A DNA stretch of 64,000 bases from Giardia intestinalis (taxonomy: Eukaryota). Within the stretch, counting starts at the first letter, position 1. Every line of letters starts with the position of its first letter. The notes below the pieces were generated by a model. That model was given only the letters and a program-made list of their open reading frames with translations. It was not told the origin of the DNA and did no database searches. Location: the NCBI GenBank assembly GCA_000002435.2, contig CM018791.1. The stretch is one strand, 5' to 3'. Shown one piece after another: positions 1,871 to 52,859 of this stretch. Position numbers and translations under genes: made by a program.

Positions 1871-4540
1871 CTACGAGACATCGCACAGACAGATGCTATT
1901 TTCCGCTATTGGCTCGGCGTATTCCATTACCTCAGACTCTATATATACCGCAAATGGTATTTTCAGGGAGCCTTCATCGATGGGTAAATCGTAGTCTGCG
2001 CCATTAGGTTCTACATCATAGCTTAAGTCCTTAATATAGTACGGAGGCATTGGTAGTGGTTGTTGACAAGTTGATGATAAGTTGTCCAGGGGAGCGGGGG
2101 CAGCAAGGGGCTCCTCCGCGCTCTCCTCGCACTCCGGGGTGGCGGCCCTCTGGTAGCTCTCGTCCTTCGCCGGGTCCAGGGGAGCGGGGGCAGCAAGGGG
2201 CTCCTCCGCGCTCTCCTCGCACTCCGGGGTGGCGGCCCTCTGGTAGCTCTCGTCCTTCGCCGGGTCCAGGGGAGCGGGGGCAGCAAGGGGCTCCTCCGCG
2301 CTCTCCTCGCACTCCGGGGTGGCGGCCCTCTGGTAGCTCTCGTCCTTCGCCGGGTCCAGGGGAGCGGGGGCAGCAAGGGGCTCCTCCGCGCTCTCCTCGC
2401 ACTCCGGGGTGGCGGCCCTCTGGTAGCTCTCGTCCTTCGCCGGGTCCAGGGGAGCGGGGGCAGCAAGGGGCTCCTCCGCGCTCTCCTCGCACTCCGGGGT
2501 GGCGGCCCTCTGGTAGCTATCTTCGCAGTATTTTGCAGCTAAGACAGAAGGCTCATCTCTGACCTGTTCAACTGTAGTAACAGTTTCTATAACCTCATAG
2601 CGGTTATAAATGTATTTATCATCAGTCTTTTCAGAAGGTGTTCCAGCCTGTCCTTCTGCTTCATACAAATCTCCCTCAGTAATAGGCGTTGGTTCCACCT
2701 TTGATGTAGCAGGCATGTGGTATGTGGTGTTTAATACTTGTCCATTCTCATCATAAATGGCTTTATCGCTAGCATTACTGTTCATCAATTCTGCTTCTTC
2801 TTCTCTTGAAATAATCTTTTTAAGAGGCATCGGCAAACTGCTTTCCCTGGTGGTCACTGGCTCTTCCTCACGCGCGAATAGAACAGGCTTTGTATTCGGT
2901 CGAGTATTAGTGGAATATCCAACTATACTCTTAGAAACATAGTTGGGTTCAATAATCGGATGTATGCTCTTGTCTGAATCTCCACAATAAAATTCTGGCA
3001 AGGGCTGGCAATAGGATTTGAAGCATGTCATAGAGCGTTTTTGGGTCATGCTGTCCCGATCATCTACCTGGTACGCTTCCCAGTCATCAGATGTAGGATA
3101 GACAGGCACTATCACCAAAGTTTTTCGTTGCTCGTTGACAAACTTTAAAATAGTGCCAAAGTCCAAAAGAGTGTCTTGCTCTGCTGTTATGGCATCCAAC
3201 AGCTGCTGAGGAGTCAGAAGAGGGACGGGAAGATCAGTAATATTAGTGTAACAGCCCTTTAGAGCATGAAGATGGGCATCCCAGCAGATTGGCAAATCAT
3301 CTCCAGCAAACACGGCATCAGCTTGTAACCCCAAAAGAAAGTAAAGGGATACGTCCTCATCGGACAAAGAGGACGTACGTGCTACACTGCTACATACCAG
3401 GTCACTGTCTAGAGGGCCTTGATCAACTCCATTCCGTGGGTGCTTCTGGTCGTACAGATCAAACAAGTCGCCAGTCTCATCACAGTTTATACATTGATCA
3501 TAGAAGATGTTAACAACTTCTTGTATCTCCGGAAGAGTCATCTCAGGCATAAACTTGAGAATCGCAAACACAAGTGCCGTTGTTTCCCGTGTATAGAAGC
3601 ACTCTTGTTTTAGATACATAAACCACGAATCCTCTGCCTTGTCTGATATTTTGATATTCGGGAGGCAGACAGGCTTGTCACAAAGAAACCTGCACGCGTT
3701 GGCAAGAGATGATAACTGAATGGTCAGCACTTTAAACTTAGTAAGAAGCTCAGTCAAGGCCTTTCTGCTGCCTTTCCCCGAACTCAGAAGAGCAGCCGTC
3801 TCATTCTTACAGATAATCCGCTCTTGAAGTAGCGTCCTAAAGAGTTTGCGGTATTCTAAAAGCGTATGCATCCTCTTTTGATACTCAACCGTGAGCGTAG
3901 AGCTTCTGTTGAGCTGAGAATACGCATAATCACGCTCTGAATAGGGGATTTCAAGAGCCTCCCACATACGAGTGAGTGATGCAACAGCATTGTGCGCCCT
4001 CAGAGCCATGGATGCCCCTTGGCCCGTCCTTGGCAAGAATTGGTTCCCACTTCGGGAGACAAGAGAGGTAGAGCCCCGATCCTTTGTCATGAACTTCTCT
4101 GACTTGTTGAGATTGTCTGTATCGTTATAGTATCGTGTCTGTGGGGAACAAATGCGTTCCAAATAAGGAGAATATTCCACCTGCTGCTCGGTAACAGACG
4201 CTTTTGGACTCCCGTGGCCATGCTTTGTAGATTTACGATAAGATTTGATGTCTGTATTTGGAGACTTTTGTAGTGGGCGGGTAATGGAGCGTGAGCGGAC
4301 ATTTGCCATGGTTGCCCCTTCTAGGTGCTTGCTCTGAATGCGGAGCATCTCTGCTTGCGACACACCTCGCTCCGTAGTCTTGGCCATCTCGACAATCCGG
4401 GCATTGTTCGGATTTGAAAAGAATGCCTTGAGGTGGGGGTCGCTTTCTGCATGGTATGACGGTGGTCTGTCACCAATTCTAGTGGTAAACTCTGGCTGCA
4501 ATCTTTCGCGTCGCGGTGCGCGGTGGTCAACAAAGCTCAT
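1871..4540 (-). CDS. Member A of a window-local paralogous family (uncharacterised conserved ~350-aa core), with five C-terminal 30-aa acidic/Pro-rich repeats.
   Basis: 889-aa ORF with a true ATG at 4540. Shared motifs with 26227-27714, 31739-34621 and 34606-36525: WEALEIPYSERDYAY, SSGKGSRKALTELLTKFKVLTIQLSSLANACRFLCDKPV, FLLGLQADAVFAGDDLPICWDAHLH, LPVPLLTPQQLLDAI, LVIVPVYP. Confidence 0.65.
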   Translation of the reverse strand: MSFVDHRAPRRERLQPEFTTRIGDRPPSYHAESDPHLKAFFSNPNNARIVEMAKTTERGVSQAEMLRIQSKHLEGATMANVRSRSITRPLQKSPNTDIKSYRKSTKHGHGSPKASVTEQQVEYSPYLERICSPQTRYYNDTDNLNKSEKFMTKDRGSTSLVSRSGNQFLPRTGQGASMALRAHNAVASLTRMWEALEIPYSERDYAYSQLNRSSTLTVEYQKRMHTLLEYRKLFRTLLQERIICKNETAALLSSGKGSRKALTELLTKFKVLTIQLSSLANACRFLCDKPVCLPNIKISDKAEDSWFMYLKQECFYTRETTALVFAILKFMPEMTLPEIQEVVNIFYDQCINCDETGDLFDLYDQKHPRNGVDQGPLDSDLVCSSVARTSSLSDEDVSLYFLLGLQADAVFAGDDLPICWDAHLHALKGCYTNITDLPVPLLTPQQLLDAITAEQDTLLDFGTILKFVNEQRKTLVIVPVYPTSDDWEAYQVDDRDSMTQKRSMTCFKSYCQPLPEFYCGDSDKSIHPIIEPNYVSKSIVGYSTNTRPNTKPVLFAREEEPVTTRESSLPMPLKKIISREEEAELMNSNASDKAIYDENGQVLNTTYHMPATSKVEPTPITEGDLYEAEGQAGTPSEKTDDKYIYNRYEVIETVTTVEQVRDEPSVLAAKYCEDSYQRAATPECEESAEEPLAAPAPLDPAKDESYQRAATPECEESAEEPLAAPAPLDPAKDESYQRAATPECEESAEEPLAAPAPLDPAKDESYQRAATPECEESAEEPLAAPAPLDPAKDESYQRAATPECEESAEEPLAAPAPLDNLSSTCQQPLPMPPYYIKDLSYDVEPNGADYDLPIDEGSLKIPFAVYIESEVMEYAEPIAENSICLCDVS
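2086..2517. repeat. Perfect tandem repeat, 90 bp x about 4.8 copies, in-frame inside CDS 1871..4540. It encodes ESYQRAATPECEESAEEPLAAPAPLDPAKD x5.
   Basis: CCAGG unit starts at 2086, 2176, 2266, 2356 and 2446. The copies are identical at the nucleotide level and diverge only at 2518. Confidence 0.95.
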
Positions 4541-6108: not shown

Positions 6109-6588
6109 CTACAGCATACTTCCATGAATGCCGTTCATCCATGGAGGACGCACTATTCTCATGTATATCTGTATATCTTTATCCATGATCGTGACGCGGT
6201 GGGCGTGGTTTGCCAGTATTTGGCAGTCTCCAAGCACCTGGGAAAGCATGGCTTCGGATGCTTCCTGCAATGCGCCGATTGCCTGGGCTTGGAAGCGAAT
6301 TTCGTTTCCTCCTGAGGGAAGTGAACACGTTATGTCACGTACAAGGCGTTGAAAGCAGGCGATGGGGATGACGCTAGTGACTCTGCGCTGCATGTTAGTG
6401 ATCTCTTTGCGAACCTGGGAGCCGGGTCGGGCACGTCTGGTGACGGCCTTTTCAGATTTCGATATAGCCTTGCGTGCGACGGTCTTCTTGGAAAGAATCG
6501 TCTTTCGAGGTGCATGTTGTCCTTTGCGTGCTGTATTGACGTGCACGCTCTTGCTGCGGTCCATAGCTGTGTTTTTGGTGCGAGCCAT
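6109..6588 (-). CDS. Divergent histone H3 variant, probably the centromeric histone CenH3.
   Basis: MARTK N-terminus. The histone fold [10 protein letters not shown]...[12 protein letters not shown]...[49 protein letters not shown] aligns with canonical H3 (RPGTVALREI...LPFQRLVREI...[49 protein letters not shown]). It has a longer, divergent N-tail and a 3-aa insertion in loop 1 ([12 protein letters not shown]), both CenH3 hallmarks. ATG at 6588. Confidence 0.7.
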   Translation of the reverse strand: [159 protein letters not shown]

Positions 6589-20979: not shown

Positions 20980-23898
20980 ATGACGCGGTTAGCGACTCTC
21001 ATGTCTCGGTATCAGCTTCTAAGCAAGCTGGGCAAAGGATCCAGGAGCACGATATACCTGGCTCAAGACAATGAAACAGGCAATTATTTGGCATGTAAAG
21101 AACTTTGTTATCGCGACTGGGATTCGTCGGAACTGAGCCTTCTAGAACATGAGATAATGGTAAATAGGGCGCTAGTTCATCCTAACATTATGCGGTATCA
21201 ATATATTCTTAACGATAAGGAGAACTGTCGCTATTACCTCTTGATGAGTTACTTTTCTAAATCAGATTTGGGGTACCAGCTCGTCAAGCGTAAGGAAACA
21301 CATGCACGATTCAAGGAGGCAACCATATGGACTCTCATGGCGCAGTTGTATGATGTGCTTCTTTATTTGCACTCTGTTGATAAGCGCCACAGTACTGATA
21401 TCTCCATTGCTCTATTAAGGGATTTCAGACCATCCAATTTCTTTCTGTCTAGTCGCGGTATTATTCAAATTAAATCTTTGCAGCACCTCAAGCTTCTCGA
21501 ATTTGGCTCTGTAGAGGCCGAGCCGTTTGCAAGCAAGCTTCCTCCACTGCTCGTACCATATTTGGCACCCGATGTTTTGCAAGGAAACTATTACAGCGCA
21601 TCATCTGATATCTGGTCTCTAGGATGCCTTCTCTATGAGTTGTGTACATTTCAGGCCTTTGTTACAGGGCGTACACCCAACGATGTCCTCCAGGCGCTAG
21701 CAGGCGCTAGACACCCCATTGTTTTGGACCATTATTCACAAAGCTTATCACACGTTCTCAGCCTTATGCTCCAGCCCAATTCCCGAGATCGCATTACCCT
21801 GAAGCAGTTGGGGTCGTTTCCACAGCTAAAGTCGGCCTGGGAGCAATATAAGGCATACATCACCCACACAAGGAAACCTGTGGGTGATCCTATACCCTTA
21901 CTGTTCCATTGCAAGTGCGGTGGGGATGGCCATAGTTGCTGCCTGGATGCTCGCCGCAAGAATGGCCTTCCAGATACATATATTTCGCGGAGAGACCTCC
22001 AGAGTGATGCAGTGACTCCGGCTAACCTCTGGCAACAAAGCACCTCTTCTCGCTTACTAGCTTCCAAGCGCCACAAGTCTAACGGCGAATTCGAGGTTGT
22101 CCACGTGAATCAGCGTGCAGAAGACGAGGATGGAATTAAATATGAACGCTTGGAATCAGATGCTCTTGCGCTGGAAGATAGATTGGGTTACACACCGAAT
22201 GCAACGGGTGTTGTATTTACACAACCGGCCATACAGGCAATCGATCTGAACAGTACACGCCAATCTCCATCGAATACCACCAAGGAGTCATACTTTGCAA
22301 CTCATGGGCGCTACCCCAAAGGGGTTGTGAACCGCCTAGTCTATAGCAATGAAAATAGCCGTATGGAGGGCGGCGGGGCGCTGCAAACTCAATTTGAATT
22401 GGTAGAAAAAGTCATTGAAGACTCTCCTTCTATTAGAAATCCGTCCAGCGCGAAATATATAGAATATGGCAATTTTGCAGGCCGCACTATGCTCAACACA
22501 ACCATCGGTGGTCAAGGAAACATGACAATGATGGGAGGAGTTCTTGGCCCTGTGAATGTAGATGAGATTTTCAAGGGCGAGGAGGTTGAGACACAGGATA
22601 GGGCATGCAGTCCGATTATCGTTAGTGTGCATTCTCCCAACTACACTAGAACAGAGCTTGACAGCCTGATGACAAACGATGGTGTCACACGCCATACTAG
22701 AAAGCATAGAAACGAGTTCGGTGATACAATCAGCACCTGCTGGCAGCCTTCTCTAAAGAGCAATATTTCTTCTGTAAGGACTCTTGACTTGGATGAAAAG
22801 GTTGCTTCAATTAACATGCCTTCGACACCAAATCACCGTCTAAGGGACAGTAGCTATGATATTTATCCCACATTAAATTCTAGCGGAGGTATGGCAGAAT
22901 CTCTATATGCCAATTCTCTTTCTCCGCCGAAGAAAAACAAAACCTCTATCAATGATAGCCATGACTCTAAGATCACTAGCCATATTTTCTCGCCGTCCTA
23001 CAAGGCATCCTTTTATGATCCAAAAATGCTATCCACACCGAAGGCTTTCGAGGCATTTAGCTCTGATGAAGAAGGACAGCATAGTGATGTGCCGCAAGAG
23101 GTAATTAACTACCGTCGAAGCCCCCCTGCATCCTTATATGAAGAGCCTTTACGCTTGGATTACCACAGGCACCCAGTACAGGTGCCTATTGTTTATACTA
23201 CTGATGATACGGTTTCATACATTGATATTCTTAAAAGCACACAATCCACAACCAGAGCAGTTGGTCCTAATAAACCGGAAAAGCTGAAGAAACAGAAGAA
23301 GTCCAAAGAACCTACCCAGCCCCCTGTAATATCATTTGAGGACGATTGCTCTGTTGGTAGACTACCTACGCCTGATAGGACAATGATAAAGGTAAGCCAC
23401 CGGGATTCTATCAGAGAGCCAGGAAACGATGATCATCTTATTTCTGCGTATTCTCGATGGTCGTCGCCTTCAATTACTCCACAACCTCCTGCAGCACCCT
23501 GCACATATGAACATTATCATGCATCGTATGTCCCACGTAATAAGCTAACGCCGCCGAAGACAATACAGGTTCCGCTCCCAGGCGACTACACTCACTATGC
23601 CTTTTCATCAAATAAGATTGAAAAATCATCAGCATTAGCCAAAGACATACATGGTGCGCATGAGCCTACGTCTACCAACAATCTAGCACTGTCCAGGAAC
23701 AGCATTGCACATGTTTATGAGACGCATTTTCTGCCCCATGAAAGGTATGTTTCTAAGCATGAGTTACAAAGAACACACCCTGTCACGTTTTCTATGTTAA
23801 ACACTACCACTAACGGGACAAGAAGCGGAGCAGAGGGGTTGAGAAATACGCTATCCACTGACAGAGGTGTTGGAAGCTCAAGTCAAGTCACTTTGTAA
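20980..23898 (+). CDS. Nek-like protein kinase-fold protein with degenerate catalytic motifs (pseudokinase) and a long low-complexity C-terminal region.
   Basis: Kinase-like N-terminus (YQLLSKLGKGSRSTIYLAQD, ACKELCY, HPNIMRY, IWSLGCLLYELC). HRD is replaced by HSVDKRH, DFG by EFG and APE by APD. A Cys motif HCKCGGDGHSCC follows the domain. ATG at 20980. Confidence 0.6.
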   Translation: MTRLATLMSRYQLLSKLGKGSRSTIYLAQDNETGNYLACKELCYRDWDSSELSLLEHEIMVNRALVHPNIMRYQYILNDKENCRYYLLMSYFSKSDLGYQLVKRKETHARFKEATIWTLMAQLYDVLLYLHSVDKRHSTDISIALLRDFRPSNFFLSSRGIIQIKSLQHLKLLEFGSVEAEPFASKLPPLLVPYLAPDVLQGNYYSASSDIWSLGCLLYELCTFQAFVTGRTPNDVLQALAGARHPIVLDHYSQSLSHVLSLMLQPNSRDRITLKQLGSFPQLKSAWEQYKAYITHTRKPVGDPIPLLFHCKCGGDGHSCCLDARRKNGLPDTYISRRDLQSDAVTPANLWQQSTSSRLLASKRHKSNGEFEVVHVNQRAEDEDGIKYERLESDALALEDRLGYTPNATGVVFTQPAIQAIDLNSTRQSPSNTTKESYFATHGRYPKGVVNRLVYSNENSRMEGGGALQTQFELVEKVIEDSPSIRNPSSAKYIEYGNFAGRTMLNTTIGGQGNMTMMGGVLGPVNVDEIFKGEEVETQDRACSPIIVSVHSPNYTRTELDSLMTNDGVTRHTRKHRNEFGDTISTCWQPSLKSNISSVRTLDLDEKVASINMPSTPNHRLRDSSYDIYPTLNSSGGMAESLYANSLSPPKKNKTSINDSHDSKITSHIFSPSYKASFYDPKMLSTPKAFEAFSSDEEGQHSDVPQEVINYRRSPPASLYEEPLRLDYHRHPVQVPIVYTTDDTVSYIDILKSTQSTTRAVGPNKPEKLKKQKKSKEPTQPPVISFEDDCSVGRLPTPDRTMIKVSHRDSIREPGNDDHLISAYSRWSSPSITPQPPAAPCTYEHYHASYVPRNKLTPPKTIQVPLPGDYTHYAFSSNKIEKSSALAKDIHGAHEPTSTNNLALSRNSIAHVYETHFLPHERYVSKHELQRTHPVTFSMLNTTTNGTRSGAEGLRNTLSTDRGVGSSSQVTL

Positions 23899-23954
23899 GC
23901 CACACCATATGTCAATAAGTGAATGGCTGCTTGGAAATCATTTCTGTTATAAAA

Positions 23955-26075
23955 ATGGCAAATCAGATTCTGGCCGGTGTCCTTCAATTAGAGCAGGTCC
24001 TGGCCACCGGAGAACACAGTGTCATATATCAGTGCGCTGACTTACGGACTGGGAGTACATACGCATGTAAGAAGATCTGTTATTCACGATTTGATCAGCT
24101 TAAAGAAGACGCTCTTAACCACGAACTTGCTGTCGTGCATAGAGCTAATCATGGAAATGTGGTTGCATACTTAGATGTTATACATGATAAACCATGCCAA
24201 ACATATTACATTATTATGCCTTTTTACAGATTTTACGATCTAGGAACGCAAATTTGTAAGAAAATTGAAGAGGGCGGTCGTTTTGAAGAGGCATGCGTTT
24301 GGCTAATATTAGTGCAGTGTCTTCTTGCTCTAGACTACCTTGACACGGAGCTCTCTGACGTCGACGCAGATGCACGTCCCACAAATAAGCTTGTCTTCGG
24401 AAACATTCGGCCCACCAGTATCTATGTTGATTTGCAAGGGAATACGTACATAAATACATTTAGATTGTCAAAGTATCCTTCGCTTTTGAATGGCACTGCA
24501 GCTCCCAAGTTAGCACCATACTGGGCTCCAGAGCAGCTCATGAACTATTCACATAGTAGTAAGATAGAGATTTGGTCGCTAGGTTGCATAGTTTACGAAA
24601 TGTGTCTCTTGCACAGTTTGTTCAGAGGCACATGCGAAGACGTATTAGAGCAAATACAGAAGCTAAGGCGACCTGTCAAGCTGCCTAATTACTCAGCACA
24701 GTTGGAGGAGGTAGTTAACAGCCTTCTAGAGCCGTCTCCAGACAAACGTCTCTCTGCAGCAGAGCTCCTCAAGCATCCGACAATCTTGGAGTACAAGCGC
24801 TTTTATGATGAGCAGATAGTTTCTAGGAAGCTTGCCTTAGGGCACCAGCTTCCACGGATGGGTCTTTGCAAAATCTGCGGCGGGAATGGATTAGATTGTT
24901 GCGAAATAGTTCGACTTGCAGTTGCCAACAGCAAAAGGCTATCTTATATAGATGAGCATGGGAATCTTGTTTACGTAGATACTCTTGCAGAGCAAAAGGC
25001 AGGGATCGCCCGTGTAGCCAATCAGCGAACTATGGACCGCATTTATTCTGTGATTAATCCAGATTCTCGGAAGGCAAATTACTTCAATATTCAGCCAGTG
25101 ACGAAGGATATGATTCGAGCTAAGCAACAAGCCAGCTATGCATGGAAATCTGCACAAGATGAAGGTAGAACTAAAGGTGAAAACGCCCACTCTATTGTAA
25201 TGAATTCAATAAAAGATGGATACAAGTACAACGAGCAGCGCAACTATTTCCCCAAAGAAAGATATCGAGACCCAAACACATATCCGCTTACTAATCTAGT
25301 TCCAGTAACGCTGATCCAATCTGCAGAGCATAAGCAAGGAACGAGATTGCAGTTAGCTTCTAGACAACGGAACGAGCTGGATCAATGGAGCTATGAGGGA
25401 CTAGACACAATAAACTTCAAGACGCAATACTCAGAGCAGCCGTCATGGGCATACTCCGGCAACACAGATATGAAGGATGTACCCAGTATCGTCTCTAATG
25501 CAGAGGAGCGAGCAGTTAGGCAAGATAATAATGATGCACCTTCTTATAAAGTAGGGCATAGTAGCGGCTTTTCCAGCACTATCGGCAATTCGTCTTTTAT
25601 CGACGAGCTTCTCTTCCAGGTAAGGTCCGTATCTCCACCTAAGCCGGTCTGTAAGGACTTCGTTCCGCTAGTGTATGCGAATTCTTCGACGCCTCCTCCC
25701 AGCTATCAGTCGATGAACAGTGTCCCAGTAACAAAGGTAACTACAGAGTACGAGCTCTTCCAACCGTCTATTCATACACTACTAAATCCGTCAGTGAACC
25801 ATGCCAGTCCAGCAGACACATCGGTACAGAGCGTAGCGCCTGTGAACATTTCGGGGCCCAGCGCCCACAGAGATGGGCCACAAGCGTTGCAGGCATCAGG
25901 ACTAGAGCCTAAGTCGTCTCTACTCGTGTCCAGCGCTGTACCATCTAAGGCATCCACAATCTACAAGAAGGAACCGCTCTCCACTTCAGTCACTTCAGTA
26001 TACAAAGACTCTGCGCTCTATGTCTCATCTGTTAACCCAGCTAGCGAGTATATGCCAGAACAAAAGCAAAAGTAG
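23955..26075 (+). CDS. Nek-like pseudokinase, tandem paralogue of 20980..23898.
   Basis: Same layout and shared motifs (ACKKICY, HGNVVAY, IWSLGCIVYEMC, CKICGGNGLDCC). HRD/DFG are lacking. The track start 23919 is a GTG; the first ATG is at 23955 (ATAAAAATG). Confidence 0.6.
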   Translation: MANQILAGVLQLEQVLATGEHSVIYQCADLRTGSTYACKKICYSRFDQLKEDALNHELAVVHRANHGNVVAYLDVIHDKPCQTYYIIMPFYRFYDLGTQICKKIEEGGRFEEACVWLILVQCLLALDYLDTELSDVDADARPTNKLVFGNIRPTSIYVDLQGNTYINTFRLSKYPSLLNGTAAPKLAPYWAPEQLMNYSHSSKIEIWSLGCIVYEMCLLHSLFRGTCEDVLEQIQKLRRPVKLPNYSAQLEEVVNSLLEPSPDKRLSAAELLKHPTILEYKRFYDEQIVSRKLALGHQLPRMGLCKICGGNGLDCCEIVRLAVANSKRLSYIDEHGNLVYVDTLAEQKAGIARVANQRTMDRIYSVINPDSRKANYFNIQPVTKDMIRAKQQASYAWKSAQDEGRTKGENAHSIVMNSIKDGYKYNEQRNYFPKERYRDPNTYPLTNLVPVTLIQSAEHKQGTRLQLASRQRNELDQWSYEGLDTINFKTQYSEQPSWAYSGNTDMKDVPSIVSNAEERAVRQDNNDAPSYKVGHSSGFSSTIGNSSFIDELLFQVRSVSPPKPVCKDFVPLVYANSSTPPPSYQSMNSVPVTKVTTEYELFQPSIHTLLNPSVNHASPADTSVQSVAPVNISGPSAHRDGPQALQASGLEPKSSLLVSSAVPSKASTIYKKEPLSTSVTSVYKDSALYVSSVNPASEYMPEQKQK

Positions 26076-26226: not shown

Positions 26227-27714
26227 TTAATTTGTGCTTGAGTCTAGGGTAAGAGTTGTTTCTCGCTCTGTCATTTCCAGAGCCGTTACTAGCGTTGTAA
26301 GGGTTGACTGATCAGCAAATGTTTGCCCCATATGGTCAGCTGCTTCATTTTCTTCTTTATCTTTATCCATACTTACATCTTTTGATTCTCTTATGGAGCA
26401 CGGGGGGACCGCAAGTCTTGCAGTCGGCTCTAGACCTGTTGCACTTAAGGAGATTATGCGTGGGGCACTCACTTTAGCCTGGCGTGCAGTAGCTTCAGCT
26501 AGCAGGATATTATCGTCTTCAATGTTAGTAGATTTATCGACATAAATCTCGATATTTGAGTCGTTAGGAATGACCGGAACAAGTACCACATTGCATCCTG
26601 AAAGCCGAATATCAGACAGAACGCTACTGAACTCTATGAGTGTCTGTTCTTCACTCTTTACGGCATCTAAGATCTGTTCTGGTGACAGCAGTGTATATGG
26701 TAAGGAGCGGTTTCCGTAGAACTCTCCTTGTTTTGTGTGCAAGAACATGTCCCAGTTGACTGCAAGACAGTCGTGCTCAAATAGTGTTTCGGCCTGTAGG
26801 CCTAAGAGGAAATTTAAAGCAGCCTCGCCGAATTCTTCGCTACTGTAGTTTGATAACTGGATGTTTTGGCTAACATCTTCAACGCTTTCAACAATCTGAT
26901 TGTCGTCTTTAATCACAAATTGGTCGTCAGAATCTTTGTGTATTGTTTCATGGAAGTACTCTTTAACCAACTGAATATGCTCCTTATATGTGTACCCGGG
27001 CTTAAAGCAAAAGATAGTGAACAAGAGTGCAGTGTTCTCGACACTGTAAAGTCCTTCTAGTCTAAGGTAAAGCAGCCAATTGTACTTAGGAGACCTAGAC
27101 GAAATTCCAAAGGGCTGCAGATTGACAGGCTTCTTGCAAATAAGTCTTGCTAAATTAACTAGAGTGCTGATGAAAATGGTAAGCCGTTTGAGCTTCGTCA
27201 GGGAGCATATGAGAACAGACTTGGATCCCTTACCAGCAGCCATTATCTGCCTGACTAATTGTACAGTCTTCTGTCTGTCTTGAGATAATTCAACATAGGC
27301 ACGCTGGAGCTCAACAAGAGTCTTTAGCTTCGCCGTGTACACTTCTAAATACTCCGAATGAGACGAAAGAATAATGCTTGCATAGTTTCGTTCCAGTGGC
27401 GGTATATCTAAGGCTTTCCAAAGAGGTATGAGCGACCCAAATGGCTTACGTAGCCAAGCTGAAGACTCGGATGGTGACTTCAGTGGGCGCCTTTCACGAT
27501 GAGCTAGGTTTATAGACGAGTATATCTGCCTGTCTACCAGTCTATTAGCTTTGAGGGAGCCTGTGTGTAGTGATACGTTATCGGGAGAAAGCAATCGCGT
27601 CTCTCTTCTACTTCTGCCTCTTCCAAGCACTCTTTCTAGACTGCTGTTTTTTCCTGGAGAGGAAGAAATCCGATATATGTCCTGGTACGAACACCCGGTG
27701 GTGTGGGAAGACAT
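26227..27714 (-). CDS. Member B of the paralogous family (core domain only, no repeats).
   Basis: Motifs WKALDIPPLERNYASIIL, AAGKGSKSVLICSLTKLKRLTIFISTLVNLARLICKKPV, FLLGLQAETLFEHDCLAVNWDMFLH, LPYTLLSPEQILDAV, VVLVPVIP. The track start 27783 is a TTG; the ATG is at 27714 after an AT-rich leader. Confidence 0.6.
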   Translation of the reverse strand: MSSHTTGCSYQDIYRISSSPGKNSSLERVLGRGRSRRETRLLSPDNVSLHTGSLKANRLVDRQIYSSINLAHRERRPLKSPSESSAWLRKPFGSLIPLWKALDIPPLERNYASIILSSHSEYLEVYTAKLKTLVELQRAYVELSQDRQKTVQLVRQIMAAGKGSKSVLICSLTKLKRLTIFISTLVNLARLICKKPVNLQPFGISSRSPKYNWLLYLRLEGLYSVENTALLFTIFCFKPGYTYKEHIQLVKEYFHETIHKDSDDQFVIKDDNQIVESVEDVSQNIQLSNYSSEEFGEAALNFLLGLQAETLFEHDCLAVNWDMFLHTKQGEFYGNRSLPYTLLSPEQILDAVKSEEQTLIEFSSVLSDIRLSGCNVVLVPVIPNDSNIEIYVDKSTNIEDDNILLAEATARQAKVSAPRIISLSATGLEPTARLAVPPCSIRESKDVSMDKDKEENEAADHMGQTFADQSTLTTLVTALEMTERETTLTLDSSTN

Positions 27715-27911
27715 TAAAAAGTTTTTGAGGACAGGTTTTAAAGGATAGTTTGGGCAGTTATAGCTGGAGCTGATGCGTGGCAACCTACCCTTGTCAACCC
27801 TTTCATTACTAAAATGTGTTTGCCATTCTCCATATTATCAATTTTAAAGTATTGATACAATGCGCAGATAAGACCCAAATTCACTTCTGAGTATAGAGGG
27901 GGGTTACGTTG

Positions 27912-31493: not shown

Positions 31494-31738
31494 AAAGTTC
31501 TCAATCAAAATATCGTAAGAAGTATCTCCATTACCATAAACATCTGTATTTAGCAAAGTATCCTCACACACCGTGTCTTCTGCCAAGGGCTTCTTTTGGT
31601 TTGTTCTCGATGCATCGGTAGGTTTTAATTTCCGTAAAGGTGGAAGGGATGATAAGGAATACGTTAGAACAAGCTCACTAACAGGTACATCTTCATTATC
31701 ACAAGCTGGAGTAAGTACTCCCTCATGTATATCGTTAA

Positions 31739-34621
31739 CTACAAGAAGGTCTTCGACGGGCTCCGCGGGCTCTGCAAGGCGTGCCTCCTCGGGCTCCTCA
31801 ACGGGCGCTTCAGGTTCTTCGACGGGCTCCGCGGGTCTGCAAGGCGTGCCTCCTCGGGCTCCTCAACGGGCGCTTCAGGTTCTTCGACGGGCTCCGCGGG
31901 GTCTGCAAGGCGTGCCTCCTCGGGCTCCTCAACGGGCGCTTCAGGTTCTTCGACGGGCTCCGCGGGCTCTGCAAGGCGTGCCTCCTCGGGCTCCTCAACG
32001 GGCGCTTCAGGTTCTTCGACGGGCTCCGCGGGGTCTGCAAGGCGTGCCTCCTCGGGCTCCTCAACGGGCGCTTCAGGTTCTTCGACGGGCGCCTCTTGCT
32101 GCTCGGGCTGTTTCTTTGCAGGAAGAGAAGAGTAACTCTTACTAGCAGTAAGCTGCTGTAAACCAACAGACTCAGGTTCCTTTCTACTTCGAGATTGTAA
32201 TAGCGGGGTCCCATCTGGTCGAGTAAAATCTGTTAGAGGAGTACTACATGGTTCGTCCAAGATGTCTTCGCGAATCCTAGATAAAAGGATGATATTATCA
32301 CAGACGTGCTCGTCGTCAACTTCATATACTTGAAAGTGTTTGGCTGTACTAGAATCCTCATAGTCTGTAGAGTCTAGACAGGCGTATCGCCCAGTACTAC
32401 TACTTCGTACTTGTGAAGTAGTGATCCTATCAAAATGACTAGAAGTGATCACCACACATGGAATGTATTCATCGTTGATATTAACTTGACTCTCAGGATG
32501 CTCGTTGTGTAGTAGATCAATTTCCCTTAGCAAGGATCCACCTGTCGAAAGAATATTTCTGGGTGAAGATATAGTTACAATAGTTGCGCTCATTACATCG
32601 TCTCGAGAGGCGATTTCCGTGGCAGTTGACGGCGGAAGCAACGTACACTCACTTATTTTGGGAATAAGGGCAGTAGCAGGAGAAATAATATTTAGATCTT
32701 TAGCATTGGTCGAGGAGCTTGGGGGCTGCGCAGTAAACTCAGCATATGGGTCCTCTGATGGTATGTCCAAACCTCCACTACTAGCTGCAAATGAAGGACC
32801 AACCACTTCTGGTTCAATAATATCTGGATCCTCATGATAACTTTGTTCATCATAGGTGCTTAAATTCTGAGTTGATGATATGGATGAGTGAGCTAGTGCT
32901 TGCATCTCTAGCGACTCCTCGTCCTTTGGAGGAGAAAGATTAACTATGGGAGCATCTTCGCGTAGATCATTGCCATCCATCTCAATAGTTGGTAGATCGG
33001 CTATCACTTCAGGTTGCGATGCAATCACAGCGGGAGATATTGACCCCGATGGCTCAAGCTGCACCTCGTGCTCATCAGGTTGTGGAAGTATAATATCCAG
33101 CGACGCCTTTAATGGTGGTAGAATAGTGGGCGCGCCTGATGAACCACTTAACGGTCTACTAGAGACATGAGTTGAAAGATGCTCATTAGATGCAAAATTC
33201 GCCTGTTCAGATTGACAAGCTTCGTTAGATACAGATGCATCTAAAGAAGAACGGTGGTCATCATCGGTAGAGCGTTCAATGTGAGCAATAGCAGAAGACT
33301 GTCTATGAGGAACAACACTTTCATCATCACCATCCGTTAGACGTCGTAGCAAGACTATTTTATTTGACCCTTCATCCTCCTGCGTAAAGATCCTGTCATA
33401 AACATCCAACGTATCCGAAGCTGAGAGCGGAGGAACAGCAACAATCCCACAATCACTTTTGTTTGCCTGCCTCATAAGATCGGTTAATTGGTTAATGGTT
33501 GTTCGCTCGACTGCAAATGCTGTGAACACTTCCTCTGGAGTCAGCTCCAGACAAGGAAGAGGAGCCTTGCCCATAGATGGCCCCCGCACCTGCTCTAAGT
33601 GTTCTACCCATCGCACCCCTAAATCATCTCCCTCAAAAGCAAACGTCATTGGAGGAGCAACCCCCAGTAGAAGAGCCAAGGATGCAAAATCATTGATAGG
33701 CGAGGCTGTGTCTACACCAGGGAGCATAACACATGCAGCTGGGGTATGAATGTTGTCATTTTGGTTTGAAAATTCTTCGTCTTTGACGCTATCCCACATA
33801 CCGTAGAAGGAAGATAACAGGGCTTTATGGTCAGATAAAGCTTGACTCTTGCTATACTTTAAAACAGTAAACATAACTGCAAAATCGACTTGATTGAAAC
33901 CTCTTTTCTTCATCCTCACGATGTAGTTTGGAGACTTCTGGGAAAATCCTGTTCTGAGAGGATTAAATGAAACTGGCTTTTCACAGATTACTCGTGATGC
34001 ATTGACGACAGAAACTATGGAAATTATAGATGACCGAAGAAGGAGGAGATCGTTTGCAAGGGACTTCCTGCTCCCCTTTCCTCCTTTCAAAGCGCTTTCA
34101 ATATTGCCAAAGGCGCTCTCATATTCCTGAATGCTTGTCAGGTATGCTTCTCTGAGATCTAAAAGAGCTTTTAACTTATTTATGTAGGTGGGGATCTCAG
34201 CCCTGTTTGCATCCAGTCGCTCATAAGCAAGATTGCGCTCTTCAATGCATACATCGAGGCTGTCCCACAGTGGTATAATATCTGTAAGAATATTCTTAGC
34301 CGTCTCAGTACGTCGCAACGGTGCTGGATTGTATGTGCGCGCAGTCTTGTAAGAAACGTCTTTTCTCGGCTTGTGCATTTGTTTTCTTGAGAGATCCGCG
34401 CTCATAAGCAAAGGATTTGCTTGCAAGTAGGGACTCTTGTAGGTGAACTTAGTGCCAGTCTGGGCAGACATGGCAGATGTATTAGTGACCAGACGCCCGC
34501 CAGAGGTAGGTCCACTATCACGACGAGACGTTCTCATTGCGTCAGTTTTTGGTGTGGATGATCGTAACACTGCCTGAGGTCTTGATCGGCCTCCAGTCCT
34601 CATAGATGAATCCGGAAACAT
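31739..34621 (-). CDS. Member C of the paralogous family, with C-terminal 22-aa acidic repeats (EPEAPVEEPEEARLADPAEPVE). The reading frame is disrupted inside the repeat array.
   Basis: Motifs WDSLDVCIEERNLAYERL, LKGGKGSRKSLANDLLLLRSSIISIVSVVNASRVICEKPV, LLLGVAPPMTFAFEGDDLGVRWVEHLE, VAVPPL. The track start 34702 is a GTG. Candidate ATGs are at 34621 and 34603. The tail ...ADPRSPSKNLKRPLRSPRRHALQSPRSPSKTFL* is the repeat read in the wrong frame after a 1-bp deletion. Confidence 0.6.
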   Translation of the reverse strand: MFPDSSMRTGGRSRPQAVLRSSTPKTDAMRTSRRDSGPTSGGRLVTNTSAMSAQTGTKFTYKSPYLQANPLLMSADLSRKQMHKPRKDVSYKTARTYNPAPLRRTETAKNILTDIIPLWDSLDVCIEERNLAYERLDANRAEIPTYINKLKALLDLREAYLTSIQEYESAFGNIESALKGGKGSRKSLANDLLLLRSSIISIVSVVNASRVICEKPVSFNPLRTGFSQKSPNYIVRMKKRGFNQVDFAVMFTVLKYSKSQALSDHKALLSSFYGMWDSVKDEEFSNQNDNIHTPAACVMLPGVDTASPINDFASLALLLGVAPPMTFAFEGDDLGVRWVEHLEQVRGPSMGKAPLPCLELTPEEVFTAFAVERTTINQLTDLMRQANKSDCGIVAVPPLSASDTLDVYDRIFTQEDEGSNKIVLLRRLTDGDDESVVPHRQSSAIAHIERSTDDDHRSSLDASVSNEACQSEQANFASNEHLSTHVSSRPLSGSSGAPTILPPLKASLDIILPQPDEHEVQLEPSGSISPAVIASQPEVIADLPTIEMDGNDLREDAPIVNLSPPKDEESLEMQALAHSSISSTQNLSTYDEQSYHEDPDIIEPEVVGPSFAASSGGLDIPSEDPYAEFTAQPPSSSTNAKDLNIISPATALIPKISECTLLPPSTATEIASRDDVMSATIVTISSPRNILSTGGSLLREIDLLHNEHPESQVNINDEYIPCVVITSSHFDRITTSQVRSSSTGRYACLDSTDYEDSSTAKHFQVYEVDDEHVCDNIILLSRIREDILDEPCSTPLTDFTRPDGTPLLQSRSRKEPESVGLQQLTASKSYSSLPAKKQPEQQEAPVEEPEAPVEEPEEARLADPAEPVEEPEAPVEEPEEARLAEPAEPVEEPEAPVEEPEEARLADPAEPVEEPEAPVEEPEEARLADPRSPSKNLKRPLRSPRRHALQSPRSPSKTFL
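31751..32079. repeat. Tandem repeat, 66 bp x 5 copies, inside CDS 31739..34621. Copy 2 (31817..31881) is 65 bp because it has GGGT instead of GGGGT/GGGCT.
   Basis: Unit CTTCGACGGGCTCCGCGGG[G/C]TCTGCAAGGCGTGCCTCCTCGGGCTCCTCAACGGGCGCTTCAGGTT. Copies at 31751, 31817, 31882, 31948 and 32014. Confidence 0.95.
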
Positions 34622-36525
34622 TTGGTCCGCGATTTTTAAAATCCGGTTATAAATACGCCGACTGTCTTGGGAGCTTAAAGGAGGTCCAAAGGCTGCGTTC
34701 ACTCACATCCGTCTCTCCTGCTTCAGGCTTGAGTTCACATTCTCTGCGACAAAACATGGCTACTCCTTCTCCTATTCGTAAGCATTCACAAAAGCAGGAA
34801 GAACGCCACGCCTTTTGGCGTTCACTTCTGCTAAAGTGTCCTGTGTTTGTTCCTGTTCAAGGGTCGACACACAAACTGCAAAAGATCACCGCTTACAGTA
34901 TCTCCAAGCATGTGAATCGTACACGAGCAAACAGTCAATTAAACCCAGTTAGAACCCCTCCCCTTTCCAGGTCATTAACCAAAGCTGTCCCTGGATCACT
35001 TCAAAATACCCGAACGCCGCGTGGCTCTGCTGTCAGCTCAACCATCCGGAACACACCTCCCATAAGAAAACCCGGCCTCACCACGTCTGTTCTTTCTAAT
35101 GACTCACTACTCTCACCATCCGGCACTACATCATTTGCAGTCTTCAAGCACCTCCCTAAGGGCTCTATAAATGGAAGTCTCTCTACGAGAAAGTCAACTG
35201 CAGAGCTGACTCTCTCAGAATGGACCCATCTCGAAGAAATGCAGACAGACTTAGGGCTTTGCGAGGCGGAAATTGCGTATTCAAAAGTTACGATCAAAAA
35301 CAACCCGGCATTGGGTAAAGCATACTTCCGTAGAACAAAAAACCTTACTGAGTACAATTCTGCGTATCGAATAGCATATAAGGAGCGTGCAATCGTCTTA
35401 GCTCGTGTCCAGAAAAATATAAAAGAGCTTCGTGGTTCACGCATCGCTCTGCTACGTTCTCTTGAGCGGCTTCGCGCTCTGACTATCTACATGTGCTCAT
35501 TGATTAATGCTGCTCGCTTGATCTGTGGGAAACCAGTAGTTCTGCCAGGGCTCAATTTATACAGTGAGCAAAACTGGCTCTATGACCTACGGCGTGAGCT
35601 CTTTATGAGCAGGAAAACCACCGCGATACTGCTTACGGTGTTCAAGCTCTTTGGTAGAAAAACATATGAGGATGTGCGCTCTGTTGTTGATGCGTATTTT
35701 ACATCGTGTATTACCGATTTTCCCCCTACTCTGTCACTGTCCGAGCAAGAGCTAAGCCGAACGCTTGGCATGCCACCTAATGAAGATGCTTCACTTAAGA
35801 GCACTATGTCAGCTTCTAGCGCCCCTGCGATCAACGGTAAGACAGCTAGTGATGATGGATCGTCGCAACCTACTCTTGAGGCAGCGTACATTCCCGACGA
35901 TAGCATGAATAACATGGGCTATTTCTCCAGAATGGACGGGCTATCTATGACCGATACCATCTATGATGAAGATGCAGATCTTGACAGAGTTACTGCGGGA
36001 GACGTGGCTCTCTACCTTTTGTTGGGTGTTAGCGCAGAAGAAATCTTCGACGGAGATGATTTGGCAGTGGCATGGAATACTCATATAGATAAAATCATAA
36101 ATACATATCAACGCCTATCAAATGTGGAATTAGAGGAGGTCCCGTCATTACAGGACCTGCCAATTGTAGACATTCCCTTGTTGACAGGGCTCCAAATTGT
36201 GGAGATGGCTCGAACAGAAACTTTTATTGTGTCTGATTACATAAACCTCCTCAAGGACTTCGATAACGTTGGCTTGGACGTTGTCAGAATACCAGTTGAT
36301 CCATCCGACCCCTTTGAGACGTATAGAGTTAACTTTGATCTATCTCTACTACGCGACAGTGCAGATCTAGCAGCATTTGAGTTAGATGGAAAATGTATTG
36401 GGTGCTCTTCTCTGTCCTCGAAAACTGCTCCTAGTTGCCCCGATGAAACAGCACATAGACCCAATAATTCTTCTCGCTCATCTGTATTTTCATTAACCAA
36501 GAGCATCTCAGTGGAGGAGAATTGA
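34606..36525 (+). CDS. Member D of the paralogous family. It is divergently oriented and its 5' end abuts or overlaps member C.
   Basis: Motifs KELRGSRIALLRSLERLRALTIYMCSLINAARLICGKPVVLPG, EQNWLYDLRRELFMSRKTTAILLTVFKLF, YLLLGVSAEEIFDGDDLAVAWNTHID, VVRIPVDP. ATG at 34606; an alternative ATG is at 34756 (MATPSPIRK). Confidence 0.6.
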   Translation: MNPETFGPRFLKSGYKYADCLGSLKEVQRLRSLTSVSPASGLSSHSLRQNMATPSPIRKHSQKQEERHAFWRSLLLKCPVFVPVQGSTHKLQKITAYSISKHVNRTRANSQLNPVRTPPLSRSLTKAVPGSLQNTRTPRGSAVSSTIRNTPPIRKPGLTTSVLSNDSLLSPSGTTSFAVFKHLPKGSINGSLSTRKSTAELTLSEWTHLEEMQTDLGLCEAEIAYSKVTIKNNPALGKAYFRRTKNLTEYNSAYRIAYKERAIVLARVQKNIKELRGSRIALLRSLERLRALTIYMCSLINAARLICGKPVVLPGLNLYSEQNWLYDLRRELFMSRKTTAILLTVFKLFGRKTYEDVRSVVDAYFTSCITDFPPTLSLSEQELSRTLGMPPNEDASLKSTMSASSAPAINGKTASDDGSSQPTLEAAYIPDDSMNNMGYFSRMDGLSMTDTIYDEDADLDRVTAGDVALYLLLGVSAEEIFDGDDLAVAWNTHIDKIINTYQRLSNVELEEVPSLQDLPIVDIPLLTGLQIVEMARTETFIVSDYINLLKDFDNVGLDVVRIPVDPSDPFETYRVNFDLSLLRDSADLAAFELDGKCIGCSSLSSKTAPSCPDETAHRPNNSSRSSVFSLTKSISVEEN

Positions 36526-51856: not shown

Positions 51857-52067
51857 GTATTTATGAAGATAATCGCATGCTTCTTTGGTGTTACATATGT
51901 CACTTAAACTAGCATTTTGCTTTTCTTTTGTTGTTTTTAAGCCCGCAACATAATGCTTAAAACACGACAAGAATCATATCTTTGTTGAGTAGTACATCTT
52001 TCTAGTCTTAAGTAAAGGGAGGCAAAGGTAGAATCCACTGGGAAATGCATCCAAATAAAAAGCCATT

Positions 52068-52859
52068 ATGACCCGAGACGAGGAGATGATGTTTACGCTT
52101 CGCACCGGGGCAATTCCCCAGCTTCCCAGTCCAGAAGTTGTTCCATCCACCACTGGGGCCGAGGAGTTACATCAGATGATCATCCTGAAGGAGTGGAAGC
52201 GGGTCTGGTATCTTGGCGGTCATGGGGGCGTGCTCATTGAGATAGCTACACCATACGACGACGTTCGCAGAGGTAAGATGAACTGTCTACACTATGCGGC
52301 TCTAACGGGATCTACTGAGGCTGTGCGCTTACTCATGCAATCTGCGGGTAGGAAGGCGGCAAAGATCTTTATTATCAATGGCCCCAAGTACCATAATCCA
52401 TCTGCCTTGATGTTGGCTGCAGCTGGGGGACACACAGAGGTTGTGCAGCTCCTTATGAACGCGGAAGCACGCATGACAGAGGATTGGGGTGGCAAGACTG
52501 CGCTCATGATTGCCGCTTGGAATGGACATTGCGATGCTGTGCTCCTTTTGGCCGATGCTGAAGCCCGAATGCAGGATAACGCTGGGATGACTGCTCTGAT
52601 GCTTTCGGTGTGGACGGAGATGCCGGGGTGCACCTCTGTCCTGGCTCCTCTAGAGGCCGGTCTGATGGATGCATCTGGTCATACTGCGCTGTGCCACGCG
52701 TGCATGCACGGCTCGGTTGACTGTGCTAGACTTCTTGCTCCTCACGAAGCGGGTCTCCGCCTTCCCAGTGGGCAAACAGTTGCAGAGGCTGCCCTCTCCA
52801 AGACTCCTAGCCAGTACAAAGATGCTGTTGCTAACGTTCTAGCATCGTTCTTGCAGTAG
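52068..52859 (+). CDS. Ankyrin-repeat protein (Giardia 'protein 21.1' type).
   Basis: Repeated G.TALM.AA..GH...V.LL...EARM.D units, for example GKTALMIAAWNGHCDAVLLLADAEARMQDNAGMTALMLSVW. ATG at 52068. Confidence 0.75.
   Translation: MTRDEEMMFTLRTGAIPQLPSPEVVPSTTGAEELHQMIILKEWKRVWYLGGHGGVLIEIATPYDDVRRGKMNCLHYAALTGSTEAVRLLMQSAGRKAAKIFIINGPKYHNPSALMLAAAGGHTEVVQLLMNAEARMTEDWGGKTALMIAAWNGHCDAVLLLADAEARMQDNAGMTALMLSVWTEMPGCTSVLAPLEAGLMDASGHTALCHACMHGSVDCARLLAPHEAGLRLPSGQTVAEAALSKTPSQYKDAVANVLASFLQ

What the first reader, a model, noticed from the sequence alone, without database searches (positions are those of the whole stretch)
2086..2517. Five nucleotide-identical 90-bp repeats lie inside a coding region.
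The copies are 100% identical at the DNA level, synonymous sites included. That implies very recent expansion or ongoing homogenisation by unequal crossover or slippage. Repeat number is likely to be strain-variable and could collapse in assembly.

The unit (ESYQRAATPECEESAEEPLAAPAPLDPAKD) is acidic and Pro-rich, a disordered-spacer type. It sits near the C-terminus, as in paralogue C.
Basis: seen in the sequence. Interest (0 to 1): 0.5.

Follow-up and report, generated by a model that had tools for sequence, protein, structure and literature searches.

The report
Homogenised coding minisatellite in Giardia gene
A perfect 90-base repeat (four full copies plus a partial fifth) lies in frame inside an uncharacterised Giardia intestinalis gene; it is a real but ordinary coding minisatellite kept uniform within each strain by recombination or slippage, and it encodes an acidic, probably floppy spacer.

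Summary
Window 2084-2518 holds 4.8 head-to-tail copies of a 90-bp unit at 100% identity. The array is in frame in the minus-strand gene 1871-4540, which is Giardia intestinalis WB GL50803_16230, an 889-aa hypothetical protein.

Orthologues show concerted evolution:
- Copies are 96-100% identical within a genome.
- Units differ between lineages by fixed changes. WB and DHA2 units are 95.6% identical, against 99.3-99.5% for the flanks.
- Unit length varies: 90 bp in assemblage A, 93 bp in B and 87 bp in G. muris.
- G. muris has its own perfect 4.8-copy array at the equivalent place.

Recorded copy numbers run from 0.8 to 4.8, but the lowest values are short-read collapses. Strain variability is therefore likely but only partly shown. 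Third-codon GC is 0.72-0.90 in the array against 0.37-0.45 in the rest of the gene, which fits biased gene conversion.

The peptide is 26% Asp+Glu and 40% Pro+Ala, with net charge -29, so it looks like a disordered spacer.

The host protein belongs to a diplomonad-only family whose roughly 330-residue all-alpha domain has no Pfam or PDB match. Four paralogues lie in this window, and several family members carry similar downstream acidic arrays.

This is an ordinary kind of feature and a new, modestly interesting example.

The parts
2084..2518 (-). Coding tandem array: 4 x 90 bp plus a 75-bp partial copy, 100% identical. Encodes residues 675-819, (SYQRAATPECEESAEEPLAAPAPLDPAKDE)x4 plus 25 aa. 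GC 74.5%, GC3 0.90.
1871..4540 (-). Host gene GL50803_16230 (XP_001704165.1 / KAE8302706.1), hypothetical protein of 889 aa, stop codon included. No Pfam hit. No transmembrane segment (maximum KD19 1.16).
3041..4048 (-). Conserved all-alpha domain of a diplomonad-specific family (residues ~165-500). AF2 pLDDT 85, pTM 0.80. No PDB or Pfam relative.
1874..2083 (-). Unique C-terminal tail (residues 820-889) conserved among G. intestinalis assemblages, including a PPYY motif. Not conserved in G. muris.
31750..32090 (-). Second GC-rich coding array: 66 bp x 5.2, 98% identity, in paralogue C (ORF 31739-34702). Unit APVEEPEEARLADPAEPVEEPE. GC3 0.65 against 0.37 for the rest of the gene. The 4th copy has lost one C of a C4 run, which shifts the frame.
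26227..27783 (-). Paralogue with the same family domain (34% identity over 307 aa to GL50803_16230). No array.
31739..34702 (-). Paralogue C, with the family domain at residues ~135-435.
34606..36525 (+). Paralogue GL50803_16289, annotated as 589 aa from an internal ATG. Carries the family domain.

Best explanation
The feature is a genuine in-frame coding minisatellite in the Giardia intestinalis WB gene GL50803_16230.

The copies are kept identical within a genome by repeated unequal exchange, gene conversion or replication slippage between misaligned units, that is, by concerted evolution. These processes change copy number and spread or erase new variants across the array faster than point mutations accumulate. 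Each lineage therefore carries its own uniform unit.

The array encodes a strongly acidic, Pro/Ala-rich segment with few hydrophobic residues. It most likely acts as a flexible, length-tunable spacer between the conserved N-terminal alpha-helical domain and the short conserved C-terminal tail.

**Shown:** the array, its reading frame, the identity within genomes, the divergence between genomes, the collapse in short-read assemblies, and the excess of GC at third codon positions.

**Inferred:** the molecular mechanism (exchange versus slippage), biased gene conversion as the cause of the GC excess, and the spacer role.
For: 1. **Perfect array.** 4.8 x 90 bp at 100% identity, in frame in an ORF that exists as a recorded protein.
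2. **The same site carries an array in every Giardia orthologue examined.**
   - DHA2 (A2): 1.8 x 90 bp, 100%.
   - GS-B (B): 2.9 x 93 bp, 97%.
   - Other assemblage B samples: 1.9 and 3.9 copies.
   - P15 (E): 1.3 copies with an in-frame deletion.
   - G. muris: 4.8 x 87 bp, 100%, in the gene next to the histone H3 gene as in WB.
3. **Units cluster by genome, not by position.**
   - WB and DHA2 units differ at 4 of 90 sites, and each difference falling inside the partial copy recurs there. The flanks are 99.3-99.5% identical. A Poisson tail at the flank rate gives 0.003.
   - WB-P15 units are 82% identical and WB-GS units 71%.
4. **Assemblage B arrays show mosaic variants** shuffled among copies and isolates, and the edge copy of GS-B is the divergent one. 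This is what unequal exchange predicts.
5. **GC3 is raised in three arrays.** Array against rest of gene: 0.72-0.90 against 0.37-0.45 in four assemblages, 0.76 against 0.57 in G. muris, and 0.65 against 0.37 in paralogue C.
6. **Composition of residues 675-819.** 26% D+E, 17% P, 23% A, 10% hydrophobic, net charge -29. AF2 predicts no secondary structure there.
7. **Precedent in the same organism.** 30 WB vsp genes carry tandem repeats, with allelic copy-number variation and acknowledged assembly condensation (PMC2996952).
Against: - No reads were available, so neither the copy number among the four WB genome copies nor that among isolates could be measured. The low copy numbers in other assemblies may all be collapses.
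- The identical 889-aa protein sits under two separate WB accessions. From my own knowledge these come from the 2007 Sanger and 2019 PacBio assemblies; the tool output does not say so. This argues against rapid instability in culture.
- Homogenisation and very recent independent expansion predict nearly the same picture and are not cleanly separated here.
- The WB-DHA2 excess divergence weakens once relaxed constraint is allowed for. By my rough hand count, synonymous and non-synonymous excesses each have P of about 0.03-0.05.
- The disorder call rests on composition plus a full-length AF2 model that was poor everywhere (mean pLDDT 35).
- No expression, localisation or functional data were found for this gene.
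Confidence: 0.8

Rival explanations
1. The arrays are young. Each lineage independently and recently amplified a single ancestral segment, and the copies are identical simply because too little time has passed. No ongoing homogenisation is involved.
For: - Unit length and register differ between lineages: 90, 93 and 87 bp.
- The G. muris unit covers sequence that is single-copy upstream sequence in WB and shares only the RAATPE core.
- P15 has barely more than one copy.
Against: - At least 1.3 copies are present in all four G. intestinalis assemblages, with the same unit boundaries in A1, A2, E and B. The array therefore predates their split (flanks 73-87% identical), yet copies within a genome remain 96-100% identical.
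- Mosaic variants in assemblage B indicate exchange between copies.
Confidence: 0.15
2. This is an assembly or polishing artefact. The number of copies, or their perfect identity, was created by consensus building in the WB reference.
For: - Repeats are demonstrably mishandled by other assemblies of this locus.
- The WB PacBio assembly needed Illumina correction of indels (PMC7000408).
- The neighbouring paralogue C array contains a suspicious one-base loss in a homopolymer.
Against: - The identical 889-aa product is recorded under both XP_001704165.1 and KAE8302706.1.
- The 435-bp array is shorter than single Sanger or PacBio reads, so it is spanned directly.
- Independent genomes (DHA2, GS-B, an ENA assemblage B sample, G. 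muris) all show arrays at this site.
Confidence: 0.03
3. The copies are kept identical by selection on the product, for example as a multivalent binding motif or a repeated immunodominant epitope, rather than by DNA-level homogenisation.
For: - Arrays of about 4.8 copies occur in both long-read Giardia genomes.
- Acidic arrays recur downstream of the domain in several family members.
- The RAATPE core is conserved between species (21 of 20,000 shuffles match it).
Against: - Selection on the protein cannot keep synonymous sites identical, and all third positions are identical in WB, DHA2 and G. muris.
- Unit sequence outside RAATPE is not conserved between species.
- The protein has no hydrophobic leader or membrane segment that would expose it to the host.
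Confidence: 0.02

Closest known systems
Tandem-repeat-containing vsp genes of Giardia lamblia (vspA6/CRP170, vspC5; 30 genes in WB; PMC2996952)
   Same: - Same organism.
- In-frame arrays of about 100-500-bp units with near-identical copies.
- Allelic variation in copy number.
- Acknowledged condensation by genome assembly.
   Different: - GL50803_16230 is not a VSP. It is not cysteine-rich, has a single CXXC, lacks the conserved VSP C-terminus, and has no hydrophobic leader or membrane anchor.
- Its array lies in the C-terminal part of a probably intracellular protein.
- It is conserved as an array across Giardia species.
Coding minisatellites under concerted evolution, such as yeast FLO/cell-wall gene repeats and parasite tandem-repeat antigens (from general knowledge, not tested here)
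   Same: - Unit length is a multiple of three.
- Copies are more alike within a genome than between genomes.
- Copy number changes by whole units.
- Edge copies are more divergent.
   Different: - There is no evidence that this protein is surface-exposed or antigenic.
- Copy-number polymorphism within a population has not been measured directly.
Acidic Pro/Glu-rich disordered spacers, such as PEVK-like segments (from general knowledge)
   Same: The composition is dominated by E, P, A and D, with few hydrophobic residues, high net negative charge and no predicted secondary structure.
   Different: There is no sequence relationship, and elasticity or a spacer function is untested.

Membership tests
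Coding minisatellite homogenised by concerted evolution | Head-to-tail copies of a 10-100+ bp unit, clearly above chance | tested here: met
   TRF finds 90 bp x 4.8 at 100% identity, score 870. The repeat finder gives spacings of 90/90/90/90.
Coding minisatellite homogenised by concerted evolution | Unit length a multiple of 3 and array in frame within a real ORF | tested here: met
   90 nt = 30 codons. The 889-aa ORF reads through the array, and the exact protein is on record.
Coding minisatellite homogenised by concerted evolution | Copies more alike within a genome than orthologous units are between genomes | tested here: met
   Within genomes 96-100%. Between genomes 95.6% (A1-A2), 82% (A-E) and 70-71% (A-B), with the differences present in every copy that covers them.
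Coding minisatellite homogenised by concerted evolution | Copy number varies among individuals or strains by whole units | tested here: inconclusive
   Protein lengths step by 30 or 31 aa: 769/799/889 and 773/804/835/866. The low values come from short-read or 454 assemblies that collapse perfect repeats. Only the 3.9-copy assemblage B array is resolved by internal variants.
Giardia variant-specific surface protein (VSP) with tandem repeats | Cysteine-rich with many CXXC motifs, a signal peptide, and a conserved C-terminal membrane anchor and tail | tested here: not met
   The sequence has one CXXC (CINC) and ends ...ICLCDVS. The N-terminus is charged, and no window of 19 residues exceeds KD 1.16.
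Diplomonad-specific alpha-helical domain family (unnamed; GL50803_16230/16289/16504 and relatives) | A roughly 330-aa domain with the conserved motifs LW..L.IP..ER.YAY, GKGSR, NAAR..C.KPV.LP and LYFLLG | tested here: met
   - Pairwise BLASTP among the four window paralogues gives E-values from 1e-11 to 1e-48.
- A profile search finds 28 proteins. All named ones come from G. intestinalis, G. muris or Spironucleus salmonicida.
- The motifs appear in the consensus of alignments A3 and A5.
Intrinsically disordered acidic spacer | Low hydrophobicity, high net charge, high proline content and no stable predicted structure | tested here: met
   10% hydrophobic residues, 26% D+E, 17% P and net charge -29 over 145 aa. 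AF2 gives no secondary structure and pLDDT 27-33 across 675-819, but the whole full-length model was poor. Actual disorder cannot be tested with these tools.

The most novel reading that the evidence does not exclude
The array may be a long-lived, actively maintained feature of this gene rather than transient junk. Two distant Giardia species each keep about 4.8 perfect copies of a roughly 29-30-residue acidic unit built around the same RAATPE core, but in different registers. Other family members carry analogous acidic arrays.

This would imply selection for spacer length together with continual turnover of the units. The GC3 excess confined to the arrays would then be a local footprint of frequent GC-biased gene conversion. 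If so, these arrays could serve as a built-in reporter of recombination between genome copies in a tetraploid organism whose sexual or parasexual exchange is still debated.
Probability: 0.15. Interest if true: 0.55.

Novelty: new member of a known kind. Interest (0 to 1): 0.3.

Why it matters
**Practical value**
- The locus is a ready-made length marker for typing Giardia assemblage A and B isolates.
- It warns that gene models in this family are truncated, collapsed or split in short-read assemblies. At this locus, 769-aa and 889-aa proteins come from the same underlying sequence.

**Biological value**
- The locus gives a clean, small example of concerted evolution in a tetraploid parasite with almost no allelic heterozygosity.
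- Three arrays show a local GC3 excess that could be used to ask whether biased gene conversion operates in Giardia.
- It draws attention to an uncharacterised diplomonad-only protein family with a confidently predicted all-alpha domain that has no known structural relative.

None of this changes current understanding of how such repeats behave.

Tried and rejected
- **Pfam.** No hit for the host protein, its paralogues, the G. muris orthologue or the ORF downstream of paralogue C. The hits on the Spironucleus homologue are spurious and inflated by its repeats.
- **Literature.** Searches for GL50803_16230 and paralogue identifiers found nothing. '16230' matched only DOI fragments.
- **PDB sequence search.** A profile search against PDB sequences found nothing better than E = 0.03.
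- **Full-length AF2 model.** With 8 sequences the model was poor (pLDDT 35). I used it only as weak support for disorder.
- **Hairpin-driven slippage.** Single-strand DNA folds of the WB and G. muris units are no more stable than shuffles (z from -0.2 to +1.2), so I rejected this.
- **G-quadruplex idea.** The + strand of the WB unit has four G4-5 runs but the G. muris unit has none, so I did not pursue it as a general mechanism.
- **Paralogue C frameshift in other isolates.** The word-indexed profile search returned only 2 proteins. The last homologue search, on the sequence just past the frameshift, returned nothing. Contigs from DHA2 and Logan end at that array. The look-up of GL50803_16289 returned only a short Logan contig.
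- **Extra ORFs in the repeat.** The ORFs listed in other frames across it (2023-2466, 2031-2492, 2050-2562) are by-products of GC-rich sequence without stop codons.
Full report
**Where the window comes from.** Exact look-ups of four window proteins place the window in Giardia intestinalis WB clone C6, on a 1,973,847-nt chromosome record. The neighbouring genes fit this: HMG-CoA synthase, a histone H3, an asparagine-synthase-like gene, a RING protein and CAF1. The ORF that holds the finding, 1871-4540 on the minus strand, is GL50803_16230 (XP_001704165.1 / KAE8302706.1), a 'hypothetical protein' of 889 aa.

**The observation.**
- Tandem Repeats Finder reports 2084-2518, period 90, 4.8 copies, 100% matches, no indels, score 870. 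The repeat finder gives the same register.
- Printing the units shows four identical 90-nt copies and a fifth that matches for 75 nt.
- In the gene's frame this is (SYQRAATPECEESAEEPLAAPAPLDPAKDE)x4 plus SYQRAATPECEESAEEPLAAPAPLD, residues 675-819 of 889.
- The array is 74.5% GC against 45.5% for the rest of the gene.
- The other ORFs listed across it in other frames exist only because this GC-rich sequence lacks stop codons.

**Is it real in WB?** The identical 889-aa protein is on record under two separate accessions for WB. From my own knowledge these are the 2007 Sanger assembly and the PacBio re-assembly described in PMC7000408. The array (435 bp) is shorter than single reads of either technology. 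I regard an assembly artefact as very unlikely.

**Orthologues.** A homologue search found three clusters. Cluster look-ups added length variants.

| Genome or sample | Array | Protein length |
|---|---|---|
| WB (A1) | 4.8 x 90 bp, 100% | 889 aa |
| DHA2 (A2) | 1.8 x 90 bp, 100% | 799 aa |
| GS-B (B) | 2.9 x 93 bp, 97% | 835 aa |
| BAH15c1 (B) | 1.9 copies | 804 aa |
| ENA metagenome sample (B) | 3.9 copies, each distinguishable by 1-4 variants | 866 aa |
| P15 (E) | 1.3 copies; an in-frame deletion has removed the start of the first unit | 728 aa |

Logan and MEGAHIT short-read contigs whose flanks are identical to WB or DHA2 carry 0.8 copy, giving 769 aa. That is the shortest path through the cycle a perfect repeat makes in a de Bruijn graph, so I read these as collapses and not as alleles.

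**G. muris.** A profile search with the conserved domain found a 953-aa protein, which I traced to the G. muris chromosome assembly GCA_006247105.1. The gene lies next to a histone H3 gene, as in WB.
- It aligns with GL50803_16230 at 44% identity over the first about 490 residues.
- It has its own 87-bp x 4.8 array at 100% identity, at residues 703-841.
- The two units share only the hexapeptide RAATPE. Only 21 of 20,000 composition-preserving shuffles give a shared run that long.
- The G. muris unit (VEVRTVEEVREVREENLSRAATPEEIPSP) extends N-terminally into what is single-copy sequence in WB (...VTTVEQVRDEP...YQRAATPE).
- The arrays therefore seem to descend from the same segment but are now in different registers.

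**Signature of concerted evolution.**
- WB and DHA2 flanks are 99.3% (5') and 99.5% (3') identical, but their units differ at 4 of 90 sites. Each of those differences that falls within the partial copy recurs there.
- At the flank rate, four or more differences in 90 nt has a Poisson probability of 0.003.
- Allowing for relaxed constraint weakens this. From I count about 8 synonymous and 6 non-synonymous flank differences. Against these, the 2 + 2 differences in the unit are each only about P = 0.03-0.05. This is my rough estimate.
- Unit identity falls to 82% between WB and P15 and to 71% between WB and GS. This tracks or slightly exceeds flank divergence (87/85% and 77/73%), while copies within a genome stay 96-100% identical.
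- In assemblage B, variants (CCT/CCC, AGT/AGC, GAT/GAC and two amino-acid changes) are distributed as a mosaic among copies and isolates. In GS-B the terminal partial copy is the divergent one. Both patterns are expected from unequal exchange or conversion.
- Because the same unit boundaries occur in A1, A2, E and B, the array predates their divergence. Mere youth of the copies is then a poor explanation for their identity, although I cannot exclude repeated contraction to one copy followed by re-expansion.

**GC at third codon positions (array against rest of gene).**

| Gene | Array GC3 | Rest of gene GC3 |
|---|---|---|
| WB GL50803_16230 | 0.90 | 0.45 |
| DHA2 orthologue | 0.82 | 0.45 |
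| P15 orthologue | 0.87 | 0.37 |
| GS orthologue | 0.72 | 0.39 |
| G. muris orthologue | 0.76 | 0.57 |
| Paralogue C | 0.65 | 0.37 |

Amino-acid composition cannot explain a third-position effect. A local excess of GC-biased gene conversion that accompanies the homogenising exchanges is a reasonable inference, but it is untested. Only 7 of 592 thirty-codon blocks in the window's large ORFs reach GC3 >= 0.85, and four of those are this array.

**Mechanistic alternatives examined.** Single-stranded DNA folds of the WB and G. muris units are no more stable than shuffled sequence (z from -0.2 to +1.2). Hairpin-promoted slippage therefore has no support. The WB unit has four G4-5 runs on the + strand but the G. 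muris unit has none, so G-quadruplexes are not a general explanation.

**The product.**
- Residues 675-819 are 26% Asp+Glu, 17% Pro, 23% Ala and 10% hydrophobic, with net charge -29.
- AF2 assigns no secondary structure there, but that full-length model was poor throughout (mean pLDDT 35).
- The protein has no hydrophobic N-terminal leader or membrane-spanning stretch (maximum KD19 1.16). It is not cysteine-rich, so it is not a VSP.
- I infer a flexible acidic spacer between the N-terminal domain and the 70-residue C-terminal tail. That tail is conserved among assemblages but not in G. muris.

**The host family.**
- All-against-all BLASTP shows four paralogues in this window that share a roughly 300-residue region: 1871-4540, 26227-27783, 31739-34702 and 34606-36525.
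- A profile of that region finds 28 representatives among 1.84 billion proteins. Every named one is a 'hypothetical protein' of G. intestinalis, G. muris or Spironucleus salmonicida.
- There is no Pfam match and no PDB sequence match.
- Near-perfect arrays downstream of the domain, all rich in Asp+Glu, recur in several lineages:
  - the 16230 orthologues;
  - paralogue C (22 aa x about 5);
  - a Spironucleus homologue (113 aa x 4.4 in the 954-aa record, against 604 aa in the other record);
  - three unnamed relatives (19 aa x 5.1, 35 aa x 6.9 and 35 aa x 7.2).
- Both long tandem arrays in this 64-kb window lie in members of this one family.

**Comparison with what is known.** In-frame tandem repeats with near-identical copies, allelic copy-number differences and assembly condensation are documented in Giardia for 30 vsp genes (PMC2996952). 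The present array behaves in the same way but sits in a non-VSP, apparently intracellular protein. It is a new member of a well-known kind of feature.

**Verdict.** Strain variability is likely but shown only in part. The feature is ordinary in kind. The cross-species persistence of a perfect array of about 4.8 copies, the array-specific GC3 excess and the uncharacterised host family give it modest interest (0.3).

Noticed in passing
window 31750-32090 (array), 31739-34702 (-) and 27912-31586 (-): In paralogue C's 66-bp array, the 4th copy reads GCAGACCCGCGG where the other copies read GCAGACCCCGCGG, so one C of a C4 run is missing. This shifts the frame and produces the odd tail RSPSKNLKRPLRSPRR..., ending the ORF at 31739.

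The unshifted frame stays open and runs straight into the 1224-aa ORF 27912-31586. The two ORFs may therefore be one gene of about 2,200 aa, split either by a real frameshift or by a residual PacBio homopolymer error. The WB paper (PMC7000408) says frameshifts were corrected with mapped Illumina reads, which may fail inside a repeat.
   Followed up: partly
L008-L011 (DHA2 and Logan contigs around the orthologues of window 34606-36525): All of these contigs stop about 2.5-2.8 kb upstream of the gene. In window coordinates that falls at paralogue C's 66-bp array, so this repeat breaks the non-long-read assemblies I fetched.
   Followed up: yes
[not shown]
   Followed up: partly
P0051 / P0081 (Spironucleus salmonicida) and P0070 / P0073 (GL50803_16504): The Spironucleus family member is 604 aa in one record and 954 aa in the other, differing by copies of a perfect 113-aa acidic repeat. 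A fifth G. intestinalis paralogue elsewhere in the genome, GL50803_16504, occurs as 886-aa and 864-aa forms.
   Followed up: no
window 49790-51970 (-), about 810 nt into the ORF; window 54971-58147 (+), about 2970-3150 nt into the ORF: These are the only other 30-codon blocks in the window's large ORFs with GC3 >= 0.9. No tandem repeat was reported there, and the cause was not examined.
   Followed up: no
window 20980-23898 (+), 23919-26075 (+), 41046-46172 (+), 52068-52859 (+), 59975-61927 (+): A second paralogous set shares an N-terminal region of about 300 aa at 28-30% identity (about 20% for 41046-46172). The orthologue of 41046-46172 has protein-kinase Pfam hits, so these are probably NEK-type kinases. 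ORF 52068-52859 matches the C-terminal part of 59975-61927 at 46% identity.
   Followed up: no
window 6109-6588 (-): This histone-fold protein of 159 aa has a long, divergent N-terminal tail and is annotated simply as histone H3. A histone-fold gene also lies just upstream of the 16230 orthologue in G. muris, so this local gene order is conserved. I did not check whether it is a variant or centromeric H3.
   Followed up: no
L003 1501-3687 (P15 orthologue): Relative to WB, P15 lacks the segment SVLAAKYCEDSYQRAATPECEESAE. Its sequence joins ...GDEP directly to PAVRAPLD of a unit. I read this as an in-frame deletion between the short similar stretches around GAGCC, which suggests the array contracts by microhomology-mediated deletion.
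   Followed up: partly
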